Positions 27,294 to 55,346 of a DNA stretch of 64,000 bases are shown here, piece by piece. The number at the start of each line of letters is the position of its first letter. Positions within the stretch are counted from its first letter, which is position 1. Source of the DNA: a virus; the IMG/VR virus record IMGVR_UViG_3300044811_000020, positions 2,457 through 66,456 of that record, one strand, 5' to 3'. The position numbers and the translations under genes are program-made. The notes under the pieces are model-generated. The model did not search any database, had not been told where the DNA came from, and saw nothing but the letters and a program-made list of their open reading frames with translations.

Positions 27294-27674
27294 ATGAAGA
27301 ACTTCTGGACGAAACTGGCATCGGCGGCTCTGGCGCTTGTCGCGTCGGCGGGGCTGTCGTTCGCGGTCTATCAGTCGTCAGTTGACGGCATCGGCCTTGG
27401 CTCCACTACGGCACCGGTGCTTACCGGCTGCGGCACTGGCTCCCCGACCATTGTCGGCAATGACATGGCCGGCACGGTCACCACCGGTACCACAGCTACC
27501 GGCTGCGTTGTCACGTTCAACTCGGCCAAGAGCGCGGTCCCTGCGTGCGTCGTGACGCATCAGGTGGCACCGGCTACGTCGACCCCGGCCTATACCGTCA
27601 CGGCGACCGCGATCACCGTCGTGCAGGCTTCGCAGACCGGCAACAAGTTCAATTACGTCTGCATGGGTCTCTGA
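27294..27674 (+). CDS. Decoration-type protein with Sec signal peptide
   Basis: MKNFWTKLASAALALVASAGLSFA| ; T/G-rich, 4 Cys. Confidence 0.7.
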   Translation: MKNFWTKLASAALALVASAGLSFAVYQSSVDGIGLGSTTAPVLTGCGTGSPTIVGNDMAGTVTTGTTATGCVVTFNSAKSAVPACVVTHQVAPATSTPAYTVTATAITVVQASQTGNKFNYVCMGL

Positions 27675-27733
27675 CATCTGGCGGGGCCCTTTGGGGCCCT
27701 TCCGCTCGTTTCAATCCACAACGGGGTTTTGCC

Positions 27734-28228
27734 ATGCTGAAGCGCTTGCTTCTCTCAATCATCACGTTGGCGGCCATCTTTGGCGTCGCGCAGGCGGTGA
27801 ATATCTCCGGCACGGACTCCAGCGGGGAATTTTCCGTCATCAAGGTCGGCTATATCCGGCAGTCGGTTACGGATACGATCACCGCCTTTGCGGGCGGCGG
27901 GCAGACCAGCGCGACGTTGCTGGATTCCGGCTATAATCGGGTCACGGTCGTGGCTAGCGCGAATGATAGCGTCAAGCTCCCGTCATGCCATTCGGGTCCC
28001 AGCAACACCGGTCCGATGCCGTCCGGCGTGATTTCGGGGAACACCACGGGGCTCATGCTCTGGGTGACGAACGCGGACTCCGCCGATTCGATGAACGTAT
28101 TCCCGCAGACCGGTGAATTCATCAACGCCTTGACCGTGAACTCGGCCTATGCGGTGGCGGCGAACAAGACGGTTGGCTTCCTTTGCAGCCCGGGCGGCTC
28201 TATCTGGTATTCCGTCCTCGGCGGCTAG
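27734..28228 (+). CDS. Decoration-type protein with Sec signal peptide
   Basis: MLKRLLLSIITLAAIFGVAQA| ; ITAFAGGGQTSATLL...DSVKLP; 2 Cys. Confidence 0.7.
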   Translation: MLKRLLLSIITLAAIFGVAQAVNISGTDSSGEFSVIKVGYIRQSVTDTITAFAGGGQTSATLLDSGYNRVTVVASANDSVKLPSCHSGPSNTGPMPSGVISGNTTGLMLWVTNADSADSMNVFPQTGEFINALTVNSAYAVAANKTVGFLCSPGGSIWYSVLGG

Positions 28229-28242
28229 ACTGGTGGTGAATA

Positions 28243-52093: not shown

Positions 52094-52104
52094 GGAATCC
52101 CGCC

Positions 52105-53034
52105 ATGAACAAACTCTTTGGCCTTTTCCTTCTCGCGATCGCGTTCCTGGCGCCGGATGCCGCCTATGCGGTCAACTGCTTTTGGGTTGGTGGCACAGGT
52201 CCTTGGACTAGCGCTAGCATCGCTAATTGGGCACCTACAACTGGCGGGGCTGCAACTGGATGCCAGACCAGCAACGCTGCCCCTGCGGCGGGCGATACTA
52301 TCACGTTCGATTCCAGTTCGGGCGGCGGAACGGCGACTCCTGACTCGTCTATCAACGGCATTGCATTTGGCGCTCTGTCAGCAGGTGGCTATACCAACGG
52401 AACGCTTGCGTTCAACACAAACAACCCAAGTCCAACATTCGCTTCGGTAAGCTTCACTGGCGCTGTAACGCGCACCATCAATATGGGCAGCGGAACGTGG
52501 ACGATTACTGGCAGCACTTCGACTATATTTACTGTGGCGACCGCTACCGGCCTGACGGATACTTTTCAAAACGCAACCATCGCGTTTACAGCAACGACAT
52601 CTAACACTCGGTTCTTCTTGAGTGCAGGAAAGACCTTTGGGGCATTTACGGTAAGTAACAATACCAGCCTTGGCATAGTCAGCATGACAGGTGCCAACAC
52701 GTTTGCTTCGATGACCATTGGGTCTGGGACTACTATCGGTATTCCTGTGAATACAACAACCACCATATCAGGTGCATCGACATTTACAGGAACAGCTGCT
52801 GCGCCTTCGGGAATAATTGGAGATTCACTAGGCAACGGGAATACCGCCACGATAAGCTTCTCGGCTGGCACAACTACAATGGTTTGGGGAGCATTAGTTA
52901 ACATAACCACAGCCGGGGCGGGCACATTCACAGCCACTAATAGTTTTAACAACCGCACAGTCCTCGATGCAGGGGACACTATTTCGCCTCCGAGCGGAAG
53001 CGGTGGCGGTGGCGGCAGGATCATTGGTGGATAA
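52105..53034 (+). CDS. Beta-helix adhesin-like protein with signal peptide, 2 Cys
   Basis: MNKLFGLFLLAIAFLAPDAAYA|VNCFWVGGTGPW...NW...GD-TITFD. Confidence 0.75.
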   Translation: MNKLFGLFLLAIAFLAPDAAYAVNCFWVGGTGPWTSASIANWAPTTGGAATGCQTSNAAPAAGDTITFDSSSGGGTATPDSSINGIAFGALSAGGYTNGTLAFNTNNPSPTFASVSFTGAVTRTINMGSGTWTITGSTSTIFTVATATGLTDTFQNATIAFTATTSNTRFFLSAGKTFGAFTVSNNTSLGIVSMTGANTFASMTIGSGTTIGIPVNTTTTISGASTFTGTAAAPSGIIGDSLGNGNTATISFSAGTTTMVWGALVNITTAGAGTFTATNSFNNRTVLDAGDTISPPSGSGGGGGRIIGG

Positions 53035-55346
53035 TGAAGTGGAAATTCATTGCGGCGATTTTAGCCTTACTCATACCGAGCGCTTGCTACGCTGCATTCG
53101 CAATCTTTCAAACTGCTACCACAGGGGTAGTGGCGGCTGCATCATCGTGTAACGTCATTACTGGCGTTGCTACCGGGATGGATGCGGGGACGTGCTTAGT
53201 CACTCCCGCGACATGCGACGGTGTGGCAGATGATCGTGTTGCCTTAGTAGCCGCTAACACTTGGGGGCGGGCGACCACCGCACAGACTGCTGGCTTGGTT
53301 GTTGAGCTTTATATTCCACCCGGCAAAACTTGCATGATCCTGTCCGGCGTGGTGCATTTTGCTCCCGTTTTAGCCGGACTAAAGAAGGGTCGCCTAACCG
53401 CTTACGGCTCCTCCATTAACGGTGACGGCGTACACAGTATTGCCCTTGGGGCAACGACCACGCAGGGTGGCGTGTGTCAGGTGGGTATTACTTTCGCAGG
53501 CGGTTGCAGCGCTCGAACAGCGTCAGTCACAGCGGGTGCTTCGTCTGTCACGCTTGATGCTACGGCATCCGGGGTTTCATTGGCAACTCTATGCGCGCGC
53601 TTTCATAACAACGGTTATGTGGCGGTGGCAGGGTTTGACTTGCAAGGCGCGTTTTCCAGCGCTTACGGTTTCCCACCGAATCCTCAATGGTCTGAGTGGA
53701 TAAAAATCGCCCCAACGGGAGTGAATAGCTGTTCCGGGTCGGGAGTAATTACGTTCGCAACCACTCTACAAAACAGCTATCTCTCAACATGGCCGTTGTA
53801 TTCGAGCGGCGCTGCCACGGAGGCCGATCAAGGAGGCCCTGCTACCATTTACTCTGTGGGCAGCGGGATCGCCGCCCCCATAAGTGTAGATAGCTGGGAT
53901 GGTGAAGCTGAAGTCTATGGCCTTACCACCGATATAAATCTCTACGTGATGGGCCGTTCGTTTTACGGCAAAGACATAACGATGAATGGGACGGGATGCA
54001 TCTGGCCGTCACAGAATGGGAGTGCCACTTTCGTAAATACGTCCGGACTGAATTGCATCATCGAAGTTGATAAGATGATAGGGACGCTTACGTATGATAA
54101 TTCGCCGATCAAGCGTATCTTTTTCCAGAGTTCCTCTACAGCTGATCTCATTGTCCGAAACACAGTCTTTCCAAACAATAGCCCGACAGCCAACATAGAT
54201 GGCACTCCTCGGCGCGCAGCGATTTCAAATTCAACTATTCCGTTTTTGAAATTGGGGCCGCAGGCGTATGGGGAAGCAGACAGCTTCTCCTGCACCAATT
54301 GCGTGATTGGCAACGTACTCACGGGCCCGTCTGTAATCTTCAAAGGAGGTACGGGAGACCCCGGCGCAAATGTCTTCTTCGCCAGCCCAAACATTGCCAG
54401 CGGTGTTTTCAGTATTCCTGATTCCATGGCTGTTACAGGCTTTGCCAATAACGGCTCTGGCTTCGTTCGTTTAACTGTCGCGAGCACCACAGGATGGGCT
54501 ACCGGGCTTCGGCCGGGTCATCAGGGATTATTCGGAAGCTGCCCCGGTACTTGCGCTGCAAGCTTCATATTGACTGTTGTCGATGCTACCCATTTTGACA
54601 CCAATTTGGCATTCGCCAGCTACACTTGGTCTGGTGGTGGCTCGATGACCCTTGGGGCACAGCAATGGAATGTCCCCGGCCACTATTTCAGCTTTAGCAG
54701 TTCAACTGGTCCCGCCACGCAGTTCTACCAAATCACTGGCGTAACGCAGGACGCGACCGGCACGCATGTAGCAACAACATTTCCCGGCAGTGCAATTCCG
54801 ACAATACCGCTGAGTGGCCCCGCTACGGTATTCCTACCGCCGTCCATTGCAAACTTTACTTGCACCAATTGCACCGGCACTGCTCAAGCCGTAGACATGA
54901 GCACATGGCCCGCAAATAAGCCCATATTTCAATACTCCAACAGGTCGTACTCAAACTTGACGGCGATGGAAACCGGCACGCTCTTAGGTGCAGTGACTAG
55001 CATCACCATCACTGTGTCGGATGCTTATACCGGCGCAACGAACCCGATGCGGTTTCAGTTGTTTGGGAATACTGTGAATGCAGCCGGAACGCTGCAGAAC
55101 TATGCTGGTATAATCAACCTTCGTCAGGCGGGCATTCGTGTTATCACCCCTGCGGGAGTTACCTGCGACACAGGCGGCGGCCCAGTTGGGGGTGCCTGCT
55201 CTGGTGACAGTAGTCTGACGCTGCCAGCTTCCACTTCCAGATTTGCCAACACCCTGACGCCATCAAAGCTCGATGGCTCACCAGTCGATGATACGTGGGC
55301 GATGAACTACTCATTTGTCTTAGATCAGGGCGTGGTGTGGCCGTAG
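53034..55346 (+). CDS. Large tailspike/receptor-binding-like protein with signal peptide, 18 mature Cys
   Basis: MKWKFIAAILALLIPSACYA| ; CDGVADDRVAL...LYIPPGKTC resembles a pectin-lyase-like beta-helix start. Confidence 0.72.
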   Translation: MKWKFIAAILALLIPSACYAAFAIFQTATTGVVAAASSCNVITGVATGMDAGTCLVTPATCDGVADDRVALVAANTWGRATTAQTAGLVVELYIPPGKTCMILSGVVHFAPVLAGLKKGRLTAYGSSINGDGVHSIALGATTTQGGVCQVGITFAGGCSARTASVTAGASSVTLDATASGVSLATLCARFHNNGYVAVAGFDLQGAFSSAYGFPPNPQWSEWIKIAPTGVNSCSGSGVITFATTLQNSYLSTWPLYSSGAATEADQGGPATIYSVGSGIAAPISVDSWDGEAEVYGLTTDINLYVMGRSFYGKDITMNGTGCIWPSQNGSATFVNTSGLNCIIEVDKMIGTLTYDNSPIKRIFFQSSSTADLIVRNTVFPNNSPTANIDGTPRRAAISNSTIPFLKLGPQAYGEADSFSCTNCVIGNVLTGPSVIFKGGTGDPGANVFFASPNIASGVFSIPDSMAVTGFANNGSGFVRLTVASTTGWATGLRPGHQGLFGSCPGTCAASFILTVVDATHFDTNLAFASYTWSGGGSMTLGAQQWNVPGHYFSFSSSTGPATQFYQITGVTQDATGTHVATTFPGSAIPTIPLSGPATVFLPPSIANFTCTNCTGTAQAVDMSTWPANKPIFQYSNRSYSNLTAMETGTLLGAVTSITITVSDAYTGATNPMRFQLFGNTVNAAGTLQNYAGIINLRQAGIRVITPAGVTCDTGGGPVGGACSGDSSLTLPASTSRFANTLTPSKLDGSPVDDTWAMNYSFVLDQGVVWP

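What the first reader, a model, noticed from the sequence alone, without database searches (positions are those of the whole stretch)
27294..55346. Candidate new system: Sec-exported virion appendages (decoration, fibre and spike proteins) assembled outside the cytoplasm
Seen: nine late genes that look like decoration, fibre or spike proteins start with a basic n-region, a hydrophobic h-region and a small-x-Ala cleavage site: 27294 (...GLSFA|), 27734 (...VAQA|), 39901 (...PAGA|), 41435 (...AAYA|), 50297 (...AAFA|), 50658 (...GAYA|), 50894 (...PAAA|), 52105 (...AAYA|), 53034 (...ACYA|). Core parts (portal, capsid, adaptor, nozzle, ejection proteins) and the adjacent 26822, 40980 and 47131 proteins have no such leader. 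Established: tailed-phage virions are normally built entirely in the cytoplasm, and fibres lack signal peptides. Inference: the phage splits assembly between compartments. Core particles form in the cytoplasm, while outer proteins are exported, folded in the periplasm and docked when holin ruptures the inner membrane. The Cys-free cytoplasmic proteins could be the docking adaptors. Alternative: they are exported receptor-blocking or lysogenic-conversion adhesins.
Basis: partly seen in the sequence, partly recalled or inferred. Interest (0 to 1): 0.93.

Follow-up and report, generated by a model that had tools for sequence, protein, structure and literature searches.

The report
Phage tail fibres carrying export signals
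An uncultured 66-kb short-tailed phage, probably of Bradyrhizobium-like soil bacteria, puts ordinary bacterial secretion signals and paired cysteines on nine late proteins, including its two tail fibres and a spike-like enzyme, so its host-recognition gear probably folds in the periplasm, away from the cytoplasm where tailed-phage particles are built; no experiment has shown this yet.

Summary
All nine ORFs begin with a basic n-region, a hydrophobic core and a small-x-small site. My heuristic flags exactly these 9 of 41 late ORFs.

The leaders are conserved as a design, not as sequence:
- 119 of 120 relatives of the 39901 fibre carry one.
- 104 of 120 relatives of the 41435 fibre carry one.

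In Bradyrhizobium-type genomes, 79 of 80 homologous fibres lack a leader and start where the window's predicted mature chain starts. Every mature chain here has an even cysteine count.

Fold or homology links four of the nine to virion appendages: two fibres, a beta-helix depolymerase-like spike, and a beta-sandwich like tailspike docking domains. The other five are unassigned.

Export is inferred. Docking onto particles after holin action is plausible but untested; one complex prediction gave only weak support. No integrase was found, which weakens the lysogenic-conversion alternative.

This scan has noted the same phenomenon before on other DNA, including a related 65-kb phage. I found no paper describing exported tailed-phage fibres.

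The parts
27294..27674 (+). 126-aa protein with a Sec-type leader (site after ..SFA); 4 Cys in the mature chain; no family found
   Evidence: Orthologues in 11 of 11 rows keep a leader, by eye. No Pfam or PHROG hit.
27734..28228 (+). 164-aa protein with a leader (..AQA). The mature beta-sandwich resembles domains of phage tailspikes, including the N-terminal region of CBA120 TSP4. 2 Cys.
   Evidence: the two Cys are kept in 10 of 11 rows and lost together in L099. Model pLDDT 72.3. Solidus gp83: Z 12.7, rmsd 1.5, 88 aligned. TSP4 residues 73-178: Z 10.1, rmsd 2.3, 97 aligned. 215 BFVD matches at E<=0.001.
28243..28929 (+). Adaptor-like protein (by position), no leader, no Cys
   Evidence: (phrog_19385, unknown function). 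The name 'adaptor' rests on gene order only.
28933..30639 (+). Nozzle-like tail protein, no leader, 5 Cys; candidate docking site of the fibre anchor
   Evidence: phrog_3287, 8.5e-44. Weak PDB sequence hits to 'nozzle' chains 8zkm_E and 8zkk_O, E about 0.002. Homologues lie upstream of leaderless fibres in 33 of 81 loci. Complex prediction gave weak support.
39901..40980 (+). Tail fibre 1 (359 aa): leader of 23 aa, conserved anchor N-terminus, collar-like body with four invariant Cys
40980..41438 (+). 152-aa protein between the two fibres, no leader, no Cys; found with leader-bearing fibres only; function unknown
   Evidence: No tblastn hit next to leaderless fibres. Weak phrog_20556 'baseplate protein' hit, 2.3e-4. 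hhalign against the 27734 family was negative.
41435..42574 (+). Tail fibre 2 (379 aa): leader of 19 aa, 4 Cys in the mature chain, C-terminal tail-fibre domain
   Evidence: phrog_11355 tail fiber, 9.4e-12. PF21882 at E 0.017, below its cut-off. 104 of 120 relatives carry a leader and 96 of those 104 have even Cys counts. Orthologues in L004, L005, L006 and L010 carry leaders.
42584..43369 (+). Endolysin with a PG_binding_1 domain, no leader and no membrane segment at its N-terminus
   Evidence: By established lysis biology this implies it needs a hole-forming holin to reach the wall (inference).
50297..50656 (+). 119-aa protein with a leader, 4 mature Cys, no family found
50658..50882 (+). 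74-aa protein with a leader (GTG start), 4 Cys, no family found
50894..52093 (+). 399-aa Gly/Ala/Thr-rich protein with a leader, 8 Cys, no family found
   Evidence: The nearest ESM Atlas clusters are all viral and unnamed, score 0.93.
52105..53034 (+). 309-aa protein with a leader, 2 Cys, no family found; lower G+C region begins here
53034..55346 (+). 770-aa right-handed beta-helix protein, depolymerase/tailspike-like. Leader of about 20 aa, 18 mature Cys. A short N-terminal peptide shared with proteins of other bodies. No particle-binding domain.
   Evidence: pLDDT 84.4; 7w1d_D: Z 22.4, rmsd 3.5, 319 aligned; the helix starts at about residue 35.

Best explanation
The nine leaders are genuine Sec (signal peptidase I) signals. 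Late in infection the phage sends its host-recognition proteins across the inner membrane: two tail fibres, a beta-helix depolymerase-like spike, a tailspike-type docking-domain protein and five unassigned partners. There the leader is cut off and the chains fold, with their paired cysteines oxidised by the host's periplasmic machinery.

Head, portal, adaptor, nozzle and ejection proteins stay in the cytoplasm. For fibre 39901, cleavage recreates almost exactly the free N-terminus that leaderless relatives use to hold on to the tail. So the exported fibres most likely meet the finished, fibre-less particles when the holin opens large holes in the inner membrane, or in the lysate. They then dock on the nozzle region, as purified tailspikes dock on P22 heads in vitro (recalled). 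The spike-like 53034 may ride on this apparatus through its short conserved N-terminal peptide, as secondary receptor-binding proteins do in branched systems.

Shown here: leader architecture, its conservation, its absence from leaderless homologues, cysteine parity, folds and synteny.
Inferred: export, cleavage, oxidation, virion membership, and the time and place of docking.
For: (1) Leaders. The heuristic flags 9 of 41 late ORFs and no core protein. Background is 25 of 393 other six-frame ORFs, and only 4 reach the nine's lowest score.

(2) Conservation of design with free sequence drift.
- 119 of 120 relatives of 39901.
- 104 of 120 relatives of 41435.
- Orthologues of 27294, 27734, 50297, 50658 and 52105.
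- Relatives of 53034.

(3) The leader is an add-on.
- The tail fibre of Bradyrhizobium phage ppBeUSDA76-2 and 79 of 80 homologues in bacterial genomes start at the conserved anchor with no leader.
- In 107 of 119 leader-bearing relatives, the nearest -3/-1 site lies 3-4 residues before the conserved Trp-Ser. That matches the leaderless N-terminus to within a residue or two.

(4) Cysteines.
- Mature chains of the nine hold 4, 2, 4, 4, 4, 4, 8, 2 and 18 Cys, all even: 50 in 2510 aa.
- The 32 leaderless late proteins hold 62 in 8339 aa; 5 have even counts, 12 odd and 15 none.
- Fibre relatives with leaders have 4 or 6 Cys in 120 of 120. Of 78 complete leaderless ones, 59 have 0 or 1.
- Among 150 representatives clustered at 50% identity, 35 of 42 leader-bearing ones have an even non-zero count, against 23 of 84 leaderless.
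- C191, C212, C248 and C259 are invariant.
- The two Cys of 27734 are lost together in one orthologue.

(5) Virion link.
- The anchor stays highly conserved in leader-bearing fibres.
- The nozzle-like 28933 and its neighbours 31194, 31526 and 31936 lie upstream of leaderless fibres in 33, 23, 38 and 35 of 81 loci.
- The complex of nozzle, adaptor and three anchors scored 0.53 against a best control of 0.00. The tool calls this 'weak support': the mark is reached by 58 of 80 solved complexes and 2 of 110 mismatches, but at 0.60 or under by only 7 of the 80 and by both mismatches. Partner pLDDT was at least 73, and the runs agree in at least 65% of contacts.

(6) Appendage folds: 53034 and 27734.

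(7) The endolysin has no leader, so a hole-forming holin is expected (inference).

(8) In four lineages with two fibres, both carry leaders.
Against: - No experiment and no trained signal-peptide predictor was available. My heuristic has a 6% background.
- The leader-bearing fibres form largely one clade, so the cysteine and leader correlations are not independent events.
- Disulfides could also form after release, without export.
- Five of the nine have no appendage-like family or fold.
- 53034 has no particle-binding domain, and its fold is shared with exported bacterial enzymes such as WceF (Z 15.9) and AlgE4 (Z 17.5). It may therefore act free in the periplasm.
- 40980, coupled between the two fibre genes, has no leader. 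If it is a fibre chaperone or connector, it sits in the other compartment.
- The complex score is of the class that the tool says is more often wrong than right unless likely beforehand.
- Docking in the seconds between holin triggering and dispersal is kinetically unproven.
- Later checks of similar reports in this scan priced the bold reading at about 10 in 100.
Confidence: 0.35

Rival explanations
1. The proteins are exported but are not virion parts. They would act in the periplasm, on the cell surface or in the medium of the infected cell. Possible roles are trimming or destroying the receptor polysaccharide so that progeny are not trapped on debris, blocking superinfection, or loosening the matrix. 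The particle would then adsorb by other means.
For: - 53034 is a beta-helix polysaccharide-enzyme fold without a particle-binding domain. Exported bacterial proteins of this fold exist: WceF (Z 15.9), described as following a Tat signal in PMC7949094 (passages).
- Bdellovibrio fibre-like MAT adhesins carry signal peptides (PMC10769870, passages).
- Five of the nine have no appendage signature.
- The distal genes 52105 and 53034 have lower G+C, and the cassette content varies between relatives.
Against: - The 39901 fibre keeps a strongly conserved tail-anchor N-terminus, in the usual fibre position next to the same tail module as leaderless fibres. That would be pointless off the virion.
- No other fibre-like gene without a leader was seen among the 41 late ORFs.
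- The genes are packed inside the late operons with overlapping stops and starts.
- No integrase is present.
Confidence: 0.3
2. The hydrophobic N-termini are not used for export of the virion pool. They might act as a transient inner-membrane tether, an assembly or solubility tag, or a segment buried or removed in another way, and the whole particle is assembled in the cytoplasm as in known tailed phages.
For: - All known tailed-phage assembly is cytoplasmic (established knowledge).
- Matrishin et al. 2023 report signal-peptide predictions on major capsid proteins of Porphyromonas phages and suggest cleavage by the prohead protease (PMC10367356, passages). So predictions on structural proteins need not mean export.
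- 40980 between the fibres has no leader.
Against: - The n-h-c plan with small residues at -3 and -1 is kept while the sequence drifts freely. This is the signature of Sec/LepB recognition rather than of a specific protein contact.
- Leader presence goes with even, invariant cysteines.
- The cleavage register restores the leaderless N-terminus.
Confidence: 0.2
3. Artefact: the leaders are chance hydrophobic stretches or upstream over-extensions of the ORFs, and the true starts lie downstream.
For: - The heuristic flags 6% of non-coding ORFs.
- The source record's own gene call for 53034 starts 87 residues downstream (683 aa, P0123).
- Met13 lies inside the 39901 leader.
Against: - Full-length relatives keep the leaders.
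- Internal Met or Val codons are not conserved among them.
- The 39901 ATG overlaps the stop of the upstream gene and follows a GAGG.
- Nine hits among 41 late ORFs, none on a core protein, is far from the background.
Confidence: 0.03

Closest known systems
Leaderless tail fibres of Bradyrhizobium phage ppBeUSDA76-2 (annotated 'tail fiber protein', OP596614.1) and of Bradyrhizobium/Xanthobacteraceae prophages
   Same: - Same conserved N-terminal anchor motif and collar-like body (42.6% identity over residues 42-226, E 2e-22).
- Same neighbourhood of nozzle-like and ejection genes.
   Different: - No leader in 79 of 80.
- Few and often odd cysteines: 59 of 78 have 0 or 1.
- The window's fibre adds a 23-aa leader and four invariant Cys.
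Anchor-branched receptor-binding systems: a T4gp10-like docking domain plus a short conserved N-terminal peptide on secondary spikes (G7C, CBA120, K1-5, KP32; Latka et al. 2019, PMC6872550, passages read)
   Same: - 27734 has a beta-sandwich matching the N-terminal region of CBA120 TSP4 (Z 10.1).
- 53034 is a beta-helix spike with no anchor domain. Its short N-terminal peptide is shared by relatives with different bodies (P0149, P0155, P0167, P0172).
   Different: - In the known systems no component is described with a signal peptide.
- Here the docking-domain protein is a separate small exported protein, and no interaction was tested.
- That TSP4 residues 73-178 are its gp10-like domains is my inference from the paper's text, not a tool result.
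Phage tailspikes and capsule depolymerases (K1 lyase 7w1d, KP34p57 8bke, phi297 gp61, LKA1 gp49, AP22 gp54, Sf6, HK620)
   Same: Right-handed parallel beta-helix: Z 22.4 down to about 14, with 220-340 residues aligned; Foldseek E down to 1.8e-7.
   Different: - In those chains the aligned helix starts at about residues 147-181 for phi297, LKA1, AP22, Sf6 and HK620, after a particle-binding domain. In 53034 it starts at about residue 35, some 15 residues after the cleavage site.
- 53034 has a leader and 18 Cys.
Exported bacterial proteins built like phage fibres or spikes: Pantoea WceF (PMC7949094) and Bdellovibrio MAT fibres (PMC10769870)
   Same: - Signal peptide followed by a trimeric phage-like beta-helix or fibre (passages).
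- WceF matches the 53034 model at Z 15.9.
   Different: - They are chromosomal genes of bacteria acting on the cell's own surface or matrix, and WceF uses Tat.
- Here the genes sit in the late operons of a phage, and one keeps a virion anchor.
Signal peptides predicted on phage proteins in Porphyromonas phages (Matrishin et al. 2023, PMC10367356)
   Same: Sec-type signal peptides predicted on phage-encoded proteins, with adaptation to the host's signal peptidase noted (passages).
   Different: The passages name capsid proteins, spanins and five unknown genes. They do not mention tail fibres or spikes or assembly outside the cytoplasm.

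Membership tests
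Sec signal peptide cleaved by signal peptidase I | Positively charged n-region, uncharged hydrophobic h-region of about 8-18 residues, c-region with small residues at -3 and -1, at the extreme N-terminus | tested here: met
   All nine pass my heuristic (scores 4.63-5.72). Background is 25 of 393 other ORFs, of which 4 reach 4.6.
Sec signal peptide cleaved by signal peptidase I | Architecture conserved among relatives while the sequence drifts | tested here: met
   119 of 120; 104 of 120; orthologue rows by eye. At the nearest site, -1 is A/S/G in 119 of 119.
Sec signal peptide cleaved by signal peptidase I | Recognition by a trained predictor; actual export and cleavage | not testable with these tools
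Lipoprotein (SPII) or Tat signal | Conserved lipobox Cys at +1, or a twin-arginine motif with a long, weakly hydrophobic leader | tested here: not met
   The Cys inside the leaders of 41435, 50297 and 53034 are not preceded by a canonical lipobox and are not conserved in relatives. n-regions mostly carry Lys or a single Arg. Read by eye only.
Podovirus tail fibre with N-terminal tail anchor (ppBeUSDA76-2 type) | Conserved N-terminal anchor sequence | tested here: met
   phrog_30879, 8.1e-10, on residues 24-64. 17 invariant anchor residues between W28 and D70 in 24 sequences. 2743 representatives at E<=0.001 for residues 24-110.
Podovirus tail fibre with N-terminal tail anchor (ppBeUSDA76-2 type) | Tail collar domain (PF07484) | tested here: inconclusive
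   No Pfam hit for the window's protein at E<=0.1. PF07484 is precomputed on 3 of the 120 listed relatives (P0080, P0088, P0095). The Microcystis phage homologue is annotated as tail collar domain-containing.
Podovirus tail fibre with N-terminal tail anchor (ppBeUSDA76-2 type) | Position after the ejection and lysozyme genes, with the same nozzle-type tail module | tested here: met
Podovirus tail fibre with N-terminal tail anchor (ppBeUSDA76-2 type) | Physical presence on the virion, bound to the tail | tested here: inconclusive
   Only a complex prediction: 0.53 against a best control of 0.00, 'weak support'. No proteomics.
Phage tailspike / capsule depolymerase | Right-handed parallel beta-helix | tested here: met
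   53034 model pLDDT 84.4. 7w1d_D: Z 22.4, rmsd 3.5, 319 aligned.
Phage tailspike / capsule depolymerase | N-terminal particle-binding (anchor) domain before the helix | tested here: not met
   Aligned model ranges start at residues 23-44, right after the leader. In phi297, LKA1, AP22, Sf6 and HK620 the aligned part starts at residues 147-181.
Anchor-branched RBP system (T4gp10-like domain plus conserved peptide) | A T4gp10-like docking domain | tested here: inconclusive
   27734 model against CBA120 TSP4 residues 73-178: Z 10.1. Against Solidus gp83: Z 12.7. T4 gp10 itself is not in the list, and the model pLDDT is only 72.3.
Anchor-branched RBP system (T4gp10-like domain plus conserved peptide) | Short conserved N-terminal peptide on the secondary RBP, shared across different bodies | tested here: met
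   The same peptide follows the leader in 53034 and in P0124, P0129 and P0131, and also in P0149, P0155, P0167 and P0172, whose next segments differ.
Moron / lysogenic-conversion exported protein (lambda Bor/Lom type; recalled) | Temperate phage; gene with its own promoter and terminator, expressed from the prophage | tested here: not met
   No PF00589 or PF00239 match in the whole record. Promoter-like and terminator-like sites are not above shuffles: 10 against 8.4 (sd 3.2), and 25 against 17.6 (sd 5.1). Genes overlap their late neighbours. Expression itself was not testable.

The most novel reading that the evidence does not exclude
A whole clade of about 65-kb short-tailed soil phages splits virion assembly between two compartments. 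Heads and tails are built in the cytoplasm. The complete host-recognition apparatus is exported by Sec, processed by signal peptidase and disulfide-bonded in the periplasm: anchored fibre, second fibre, docking-domain protein and depolymerase spike. It snaps onto the particles only when the holin breaches the inner membrane. This would be a second assembly route for tailed phages, gained by grafting a leader exactly onto the fibre's anchoring N-terminus.
Probability: 0.25. Interest if true: 0.9.

Novelty: new variant of a known kind. Interest (0 to 1): 0.68.

Why it matters
Textbook tailed-phage assembly takes place wholly in the cytoplasm, which is reducing, so fibres and spikes are not expected to rely on catalysed disulfides.

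If these fibres really mature in the periplasm:
- The last assembly step would be tied to the lysis clock.
- Host Sec, LepB and Dsb functions would become host factors for infectivity.
- Fibre-less particles and free periplasmic fibres would be natural intermediates.
- Genome annotators that trim or ignore leaders would be misreading receptor-binding proteins. The source record's own call for 53034 starts 87 residues late.

The fibre family is large, with 2743 representatives at E<=0.001, and about a third of the nearest 150 carry leaders. The trait is therefore not a curiosity of one genome. It also gives a clean, testable case: one protein family in two states, with and without a leader, on the same tail module.

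Tried and rejected
- DNA megablast of 25679-45000 against cultured phages found no match.
- tblastn of 41435 and 53034 against cultured phages found no match. No cultured relative with virion proteomics could therefore be used.
- Pfam and PHROGs found no family for 27294, 50297, 50658, 50894 or 52105. The ESM Atlas gave only unnamed viral clusters for 50894 and weak leads for 53034.
- I guessed from sequence patterns that 40980 shares the beta-sandwich of 27734. hhalign of the two family alignments gave probability 0.3%, so I dropped the idea.
- The promoter and terminator scan of 38000-56500 was not above shuffles, so it says nothing on separate transcription of the 50297-55346 cassette.
- No tRNA genes.
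- The PHROG hit of 26822 to 'Rz-like spanin' (4.2e-5) is judged spurious from its place beside the capsid gene. Its role is unknown.
- Similarity of 53034 residues 459-538 to nozzle 28933 residues 354-434 is marginal (E 0.038) and was not pursued.
- The listing of cluster members gave no names for three fibre relatives.
- Literature: seven full-text searches listed no paper describing signal peptides on tailed-phage fibres or spikes, or periplasmic assembly. I read only listings, plus passages of six papers.
- Subscription journals are not covered.
- The look-up of sequencing runs and read laying were not used, because reads cannot show export.

Full report
WHAT THE WINDOW IS

- The window is bases 2457-66456 of a 66,456-base IMG/VR virus record rated 100% complete.
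- It has no tRNA genes and no close cultured relative at DNA level.
- The late genes run on the + strand:
  - a P22-like portal (PF16510, 6.3e-100);
  - a major capsid protein (phrog_334, 1.6e-73), 51% identical to that of Rhizobium phage RHph_Y1_10 and more distantly like Bcep22-type podophages;
  - an adaptor-like gene (named from position only);
  - a nozzle-like protein (phrog_3287, 8.5e-44; weak PDB sequence hits to 'nozzle' chains);
  - ejection proteins;
  - an endolysin with a PG_binding_1 domain.
- The terminase-like gene lies at 47497, at the end of the late block.
- No tyrosine or serine integrase is found in the whole record.

THE OBSERVATION

All nine ORFs and the quoted cleavage motifs are present.

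- A simple n/h/c heuristic of my own flags exactly these 9 of 41 late ORFs (scores 4.63-5.72) and no core protein.
- As a control, over all 400 six-frame ORFs of at least 60 aa it flags 32.
  - Seven of those are claimed ORFs. The other two claimed ORFs are missed only because the longest-ORF start lies upstream.
  - That leaves 25 of 393 others, of which only 4 reach 4.6.
- One of those four is a further small + strand ORF at 15876-16115.
- No trained predictor was available.

THE LEADERS ARE SELECTED FEATURES

Fibre 39901 (P0002):
- 119 of 120 relatives, the window's own protein included, pass the heuristic.
- Their leaders fall into several unrelated sequence types, all in front of the same invariant anchor.
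- The nearest -3/-1 site lies 3-4 residues before the conserved Trp-Ser in 107 of 119. One relative has no site.

Fibre 41435:
- 104 of 120 relatives pass. Several of the 16 misses are truncated calls or fragments.

On related IMG/VR contigs (by eye):
- Orthologues of 27294 (11 of 11 rows), 27734 (13 of 13), 50297 (3 of 3), 50658 (2 of 2) and 52105 (1 of 1) keep leaders.
- Orthologues of 26822, 28243, 47131 and 50043 (15, 9, 6 and 6 rows) have none.

53034:
- Relatives keep leaders by eye.
- The source record's own gene call for it starts 87 residues downstream (P0123).

THE LEADER IS AN ADD-ON TO AN ORDINARY FIBRE

- The annotated tail fibre of Bradyrhizobium phage ppBeUSDA76-2 is homologous (E 2e-22). 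It starts directly at the anchor.
- A scan of one genome per prokaryote species with the fibre alignment returned 80 loci, nearly all Bradyrhizobium or Xanthobacteraceae. In 79 of 80 the fibre is leaderless.
- The single exception, L010, is a 61-kb contig binned with a Bryobacteraceae MAG. It is probably a whole phage genome.
- The host is therefore probably Bradyrhizobium-like (inference).
- An exhaustive search with the mature anchor (residues 24-110) found 2743 representatives at E<=0.001. The best 150 break down as follows:
  - 84 are leaderless;
  - 42 carry a heuristic-positive leader;
  - 14 have other N-terminal extensions, some leader-like and some clearly over-called starts;
  - 10 escaped my motif.

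CYSTEINES

- Mature chains of the nine hold 4, 2, 4, 4, 4, 4, 8, 2 and 18 Cys, all even. That is 2.0% of residues, against 0.74% in the 32 leaderless late proteins.
- Of those 32, 5 have even counts, 12 odd and 15 none.
- Leader-bearing fibre relatives have 4 Cys (110) or 6 Cys (10). Of 78 complete leaderless homologues, 59 have 0 or 1.
- Among the 150 representatives, 35 of 42 leader-bearing ones have an even non-zero count, against 23 of 84 leaderless.
- Four Cys of 39901 are invariant. Two of them replace non-Cys positions of the collar-like segment of the leaderless phage fibre.
- The two Cys of 27734 are kept in 10 of 11 orthologues and lost together in the eleventh.
- Caveat: the leader-bearing sequences are related to each other, so these are not independent counts.

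WHAT THE NINE PROTEINS ARE

- 39901 and 41435 are tail-fibre homologues.
- 53034 was modelled with 25 sequences (pLDDT 84.4).
  - It is a right-handed beta-helix, best matched by phage capsule depolymerases and tailspikes (7w1d_D Z 22.4; 8bke Z 20.9; Foldseek).
  - It also matches exported bacterial enzymes (AlgE4 Z 17.5, WceF Z 15.9).
  - The helix begins about 15 residues after the cleavage site, so the particle-binding domain of classical tailspikes is missing.
  - The short peptide after the leader is shared by relatives whose next segments differ.
- 27734 (model pLDDT 72.3) is a beta-sandwich.
  - It matches a domain of the Solidus gp83 tailspike (Z 12.7) and the N-terminal region of CBA120 TSP4 (Z 10.1).
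  - It also matches many phage proteins in BFVD.
- Latka et al. 2019 (PMC6872550, passages) describe branched receptor-binding systems. In these, T4gp10-like domains, present in TSP4, serve as docking sites for secondary spikes that carry only a short conserved N-terminal peptide. The pair 27734 and 53034 fits that plan, but I tested no interaction.
- 27294, 50297, 50658, 50894 and 52105 remain unassigned.
- Nothing supports capsid decoration.

LINK TO THE VIRION

- The anchor remains strongly conserved in leader-bearing fibres.
- Homologues of nozzle-like 28933 (43-46% identity for the four best listed, full length) and of 31194, 31526 and 31936 lie within 10 kb upstream of leaderless fibres in 33, 23, 38 and 35 of 81 loci. 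Both fibre states therefore go with the same tail module.
- A complex prediction of nozzle, adaptor and three copies of the mature anchor (residues 24-88), each with its own alignment, scored 0.53, 0.54 and 0.49. All three controls scored 0.00, including the one that replaced the nozzle.
  - The tool's verdict is 'weak support': the mark is reached by 58 of 80 solved complexes and 2 of 110 mismatches.
  - At 0.60 or under it is reached by only 7 of the 80 and by both mismatches.
  - Partner pLDDT was at least 73, and the runs agree in at least 65% of contacts.
- In four lineages with two fibres (L004, L005, L006, L010) both carry leaders, and the roughly 150-aa protein between them (seen in L004, L006 and L010) does not.
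- Downstream of leaderless fibres only 17 of 427 ORFs in 76 loci are flagged.

MECHANISM AND ITS STATUS

Most likely, the leaders drive Sec export late in infection. Signal peptidase then recreates the native anchor N-terminus, and the host's periplasmic oxidation system sets the disulfides.

The endolysin has no leader or membrane segment, so lysis should begin with a hole-forming holin (inference from established lysis biology). Those holes, or full lysis, would let fibre-less particles and periplasmic fibres meet. Purified tailspikes are known to bind P22 heads in vitro (recalled), so late docking is physically reasonable.

All of this beyond the sequence features is inference. Against it:
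- 40980 has no leader.
- 53034 has no anchor domain.
- Five of the nine proteins have unknown roles.
- The correlations rest largely on one clade.
- There are no protein-level data.

RIVALS

- Exported but non-virion proteins, for example receptor-destroying or exclusion functions. This fits 53034 well but fits the anchored fibre poorly.
- A non-export role of the hydrophobic N-termini. Matrishin et al. 2023 note signal-peptide predictions on capsid proteins that they think a prohead protease removes.
- Artefact, which is very unlikely given the conservation.
- Lysogenic conversion. This is weakened by the lack of an integrase and by the near absence of leader-bearing fibres from bacterial chromosomes.

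KNOWN OR NEW

- Seven full-text searches listed no paper on signal peptides on tailed-phage fibres or on periplasmic assembly. Supplements and subscription journals were not visible.
- The nearest printed items:
  - Matrishin et al. 2023;
  - Bdellovibrio MAT fibres, which follow a signal peptide;
  - the Tat-exported tailspike-like WceF.
- This scan itself has noted the phenomenon many times on other DNA. One note concerns a related 65-kb phage, with the same reading of a leader plus two extra cysteine pairs.
- Later checks of two such reports kept the observation but priced the bold reading near 10 in 100. I set my own odds somewhat higher, at 0.25, for four reasons: the matching N-terminal register, the shared tail module, the weak complex support and the leaderless endolysin.

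VERDICT

- It is a new variant of a known kind: tail fibres and spikes with grafted Sec leaders.
- Interest is high if export of virion parts is shown.

Noticed in passing
window 53034-55346: The source record's own gene call for this protein is 683 aa and starts 87 residues downstream of the leader-bearing ATG (P0123). Full-length relatives of 741-759 aa cover the N-terminus. Automatic calls can therefore hide such leaders.
   Followed up: partly
window 15876-16115: A tenth leader-like ORF (79 aa, GTG start, heuristic score 4.6) lies upstream of the structural genes. Its mature part is charged and looks helical. No Pfam hit.
   Followed up: partly
window 43775-44242 (likely start near 43868): A lipoprotein-like ORF sits after the endolysin, with a Leu-Gly-Gly-Cys lipobox and three further Cys. 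Orthologues are present in L004, L005, L006 and L008. It is longer than a typical outer-membrane spanin subunit.
   Followed up: no
window 53034-55346 residues 459-538 and 28933-30639 residues 354-434: A roughly 80-residue segment of the exported beta-helix protein weakly resembles a segment of the nozzle-like protein (pairwise E 0.038). A nozzle-like protein (P0173) and three Bradyrhizobium loci also hit this segment (E 6.5e-6 to 8e-7). It may be a shared small domain.
   Followed up: partly
proteins P0179, P0191, P0209, P0211, P0213, P0228, P0261, P0273: Many leader-bearing fibre representatives of other lineages have a Cys at the first or second residue after the predicted cleavage site, just before the conserved Trp-x-Trp-Ser. 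The window's fibre does not.
   Followed up: no
window 30639-31193, 39401-39904, 49052-49690, 7177-7680, 1565-2209(-), 63365-63709(-): At least six HNH/AP2-like homing-endonuclease-type ORFs are scattered through the genome. Three of them are wedged into the late operons, one directly upstream of the fibre gene and overlapping its start.
   Followed up: no
window 47497-49059 versus 19638-21995; L093/L102: The terminase-like gene sits at the far end of the late block, about 28 kb after the portal gene. In relative IMGVR_UViG_3300012930_000003 it lies about 13 kb before the capsid gene. Gene order therefore differs within the clade.
   Followed up: no
window 52000-56000: G+C falls to 0.54-0.55 over 52105-55346, against about 0.59-0.62 nearby. 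The content of the 50297-55346 cassette differs between close relatives L090 and L094, as expected for exchangeable host-range genes.
   Followed up: partly
L010 (CBDCAQ010000008.1, 60,966 bases): This is the only leader-bearing fibre among 80 bacterial-genome loci. It lies on a phage-sized contig binned with a Bryobacteraceae MAG, while all other host signals point to Bradyrhizobium or Xanthobacteraceae. It is probably a binning artefact or a distinct host.
   Followed up: no
window 26822-27241: A conserved Cys-free 139-aa protein lies directly after the capsid gene (67-100% identical in 15 relatives). Its only hit is a weak PHROG labelled 'Rz-like spanin', which its position makes doubtful. 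It may be a head accessory protein.
   Followed up: no
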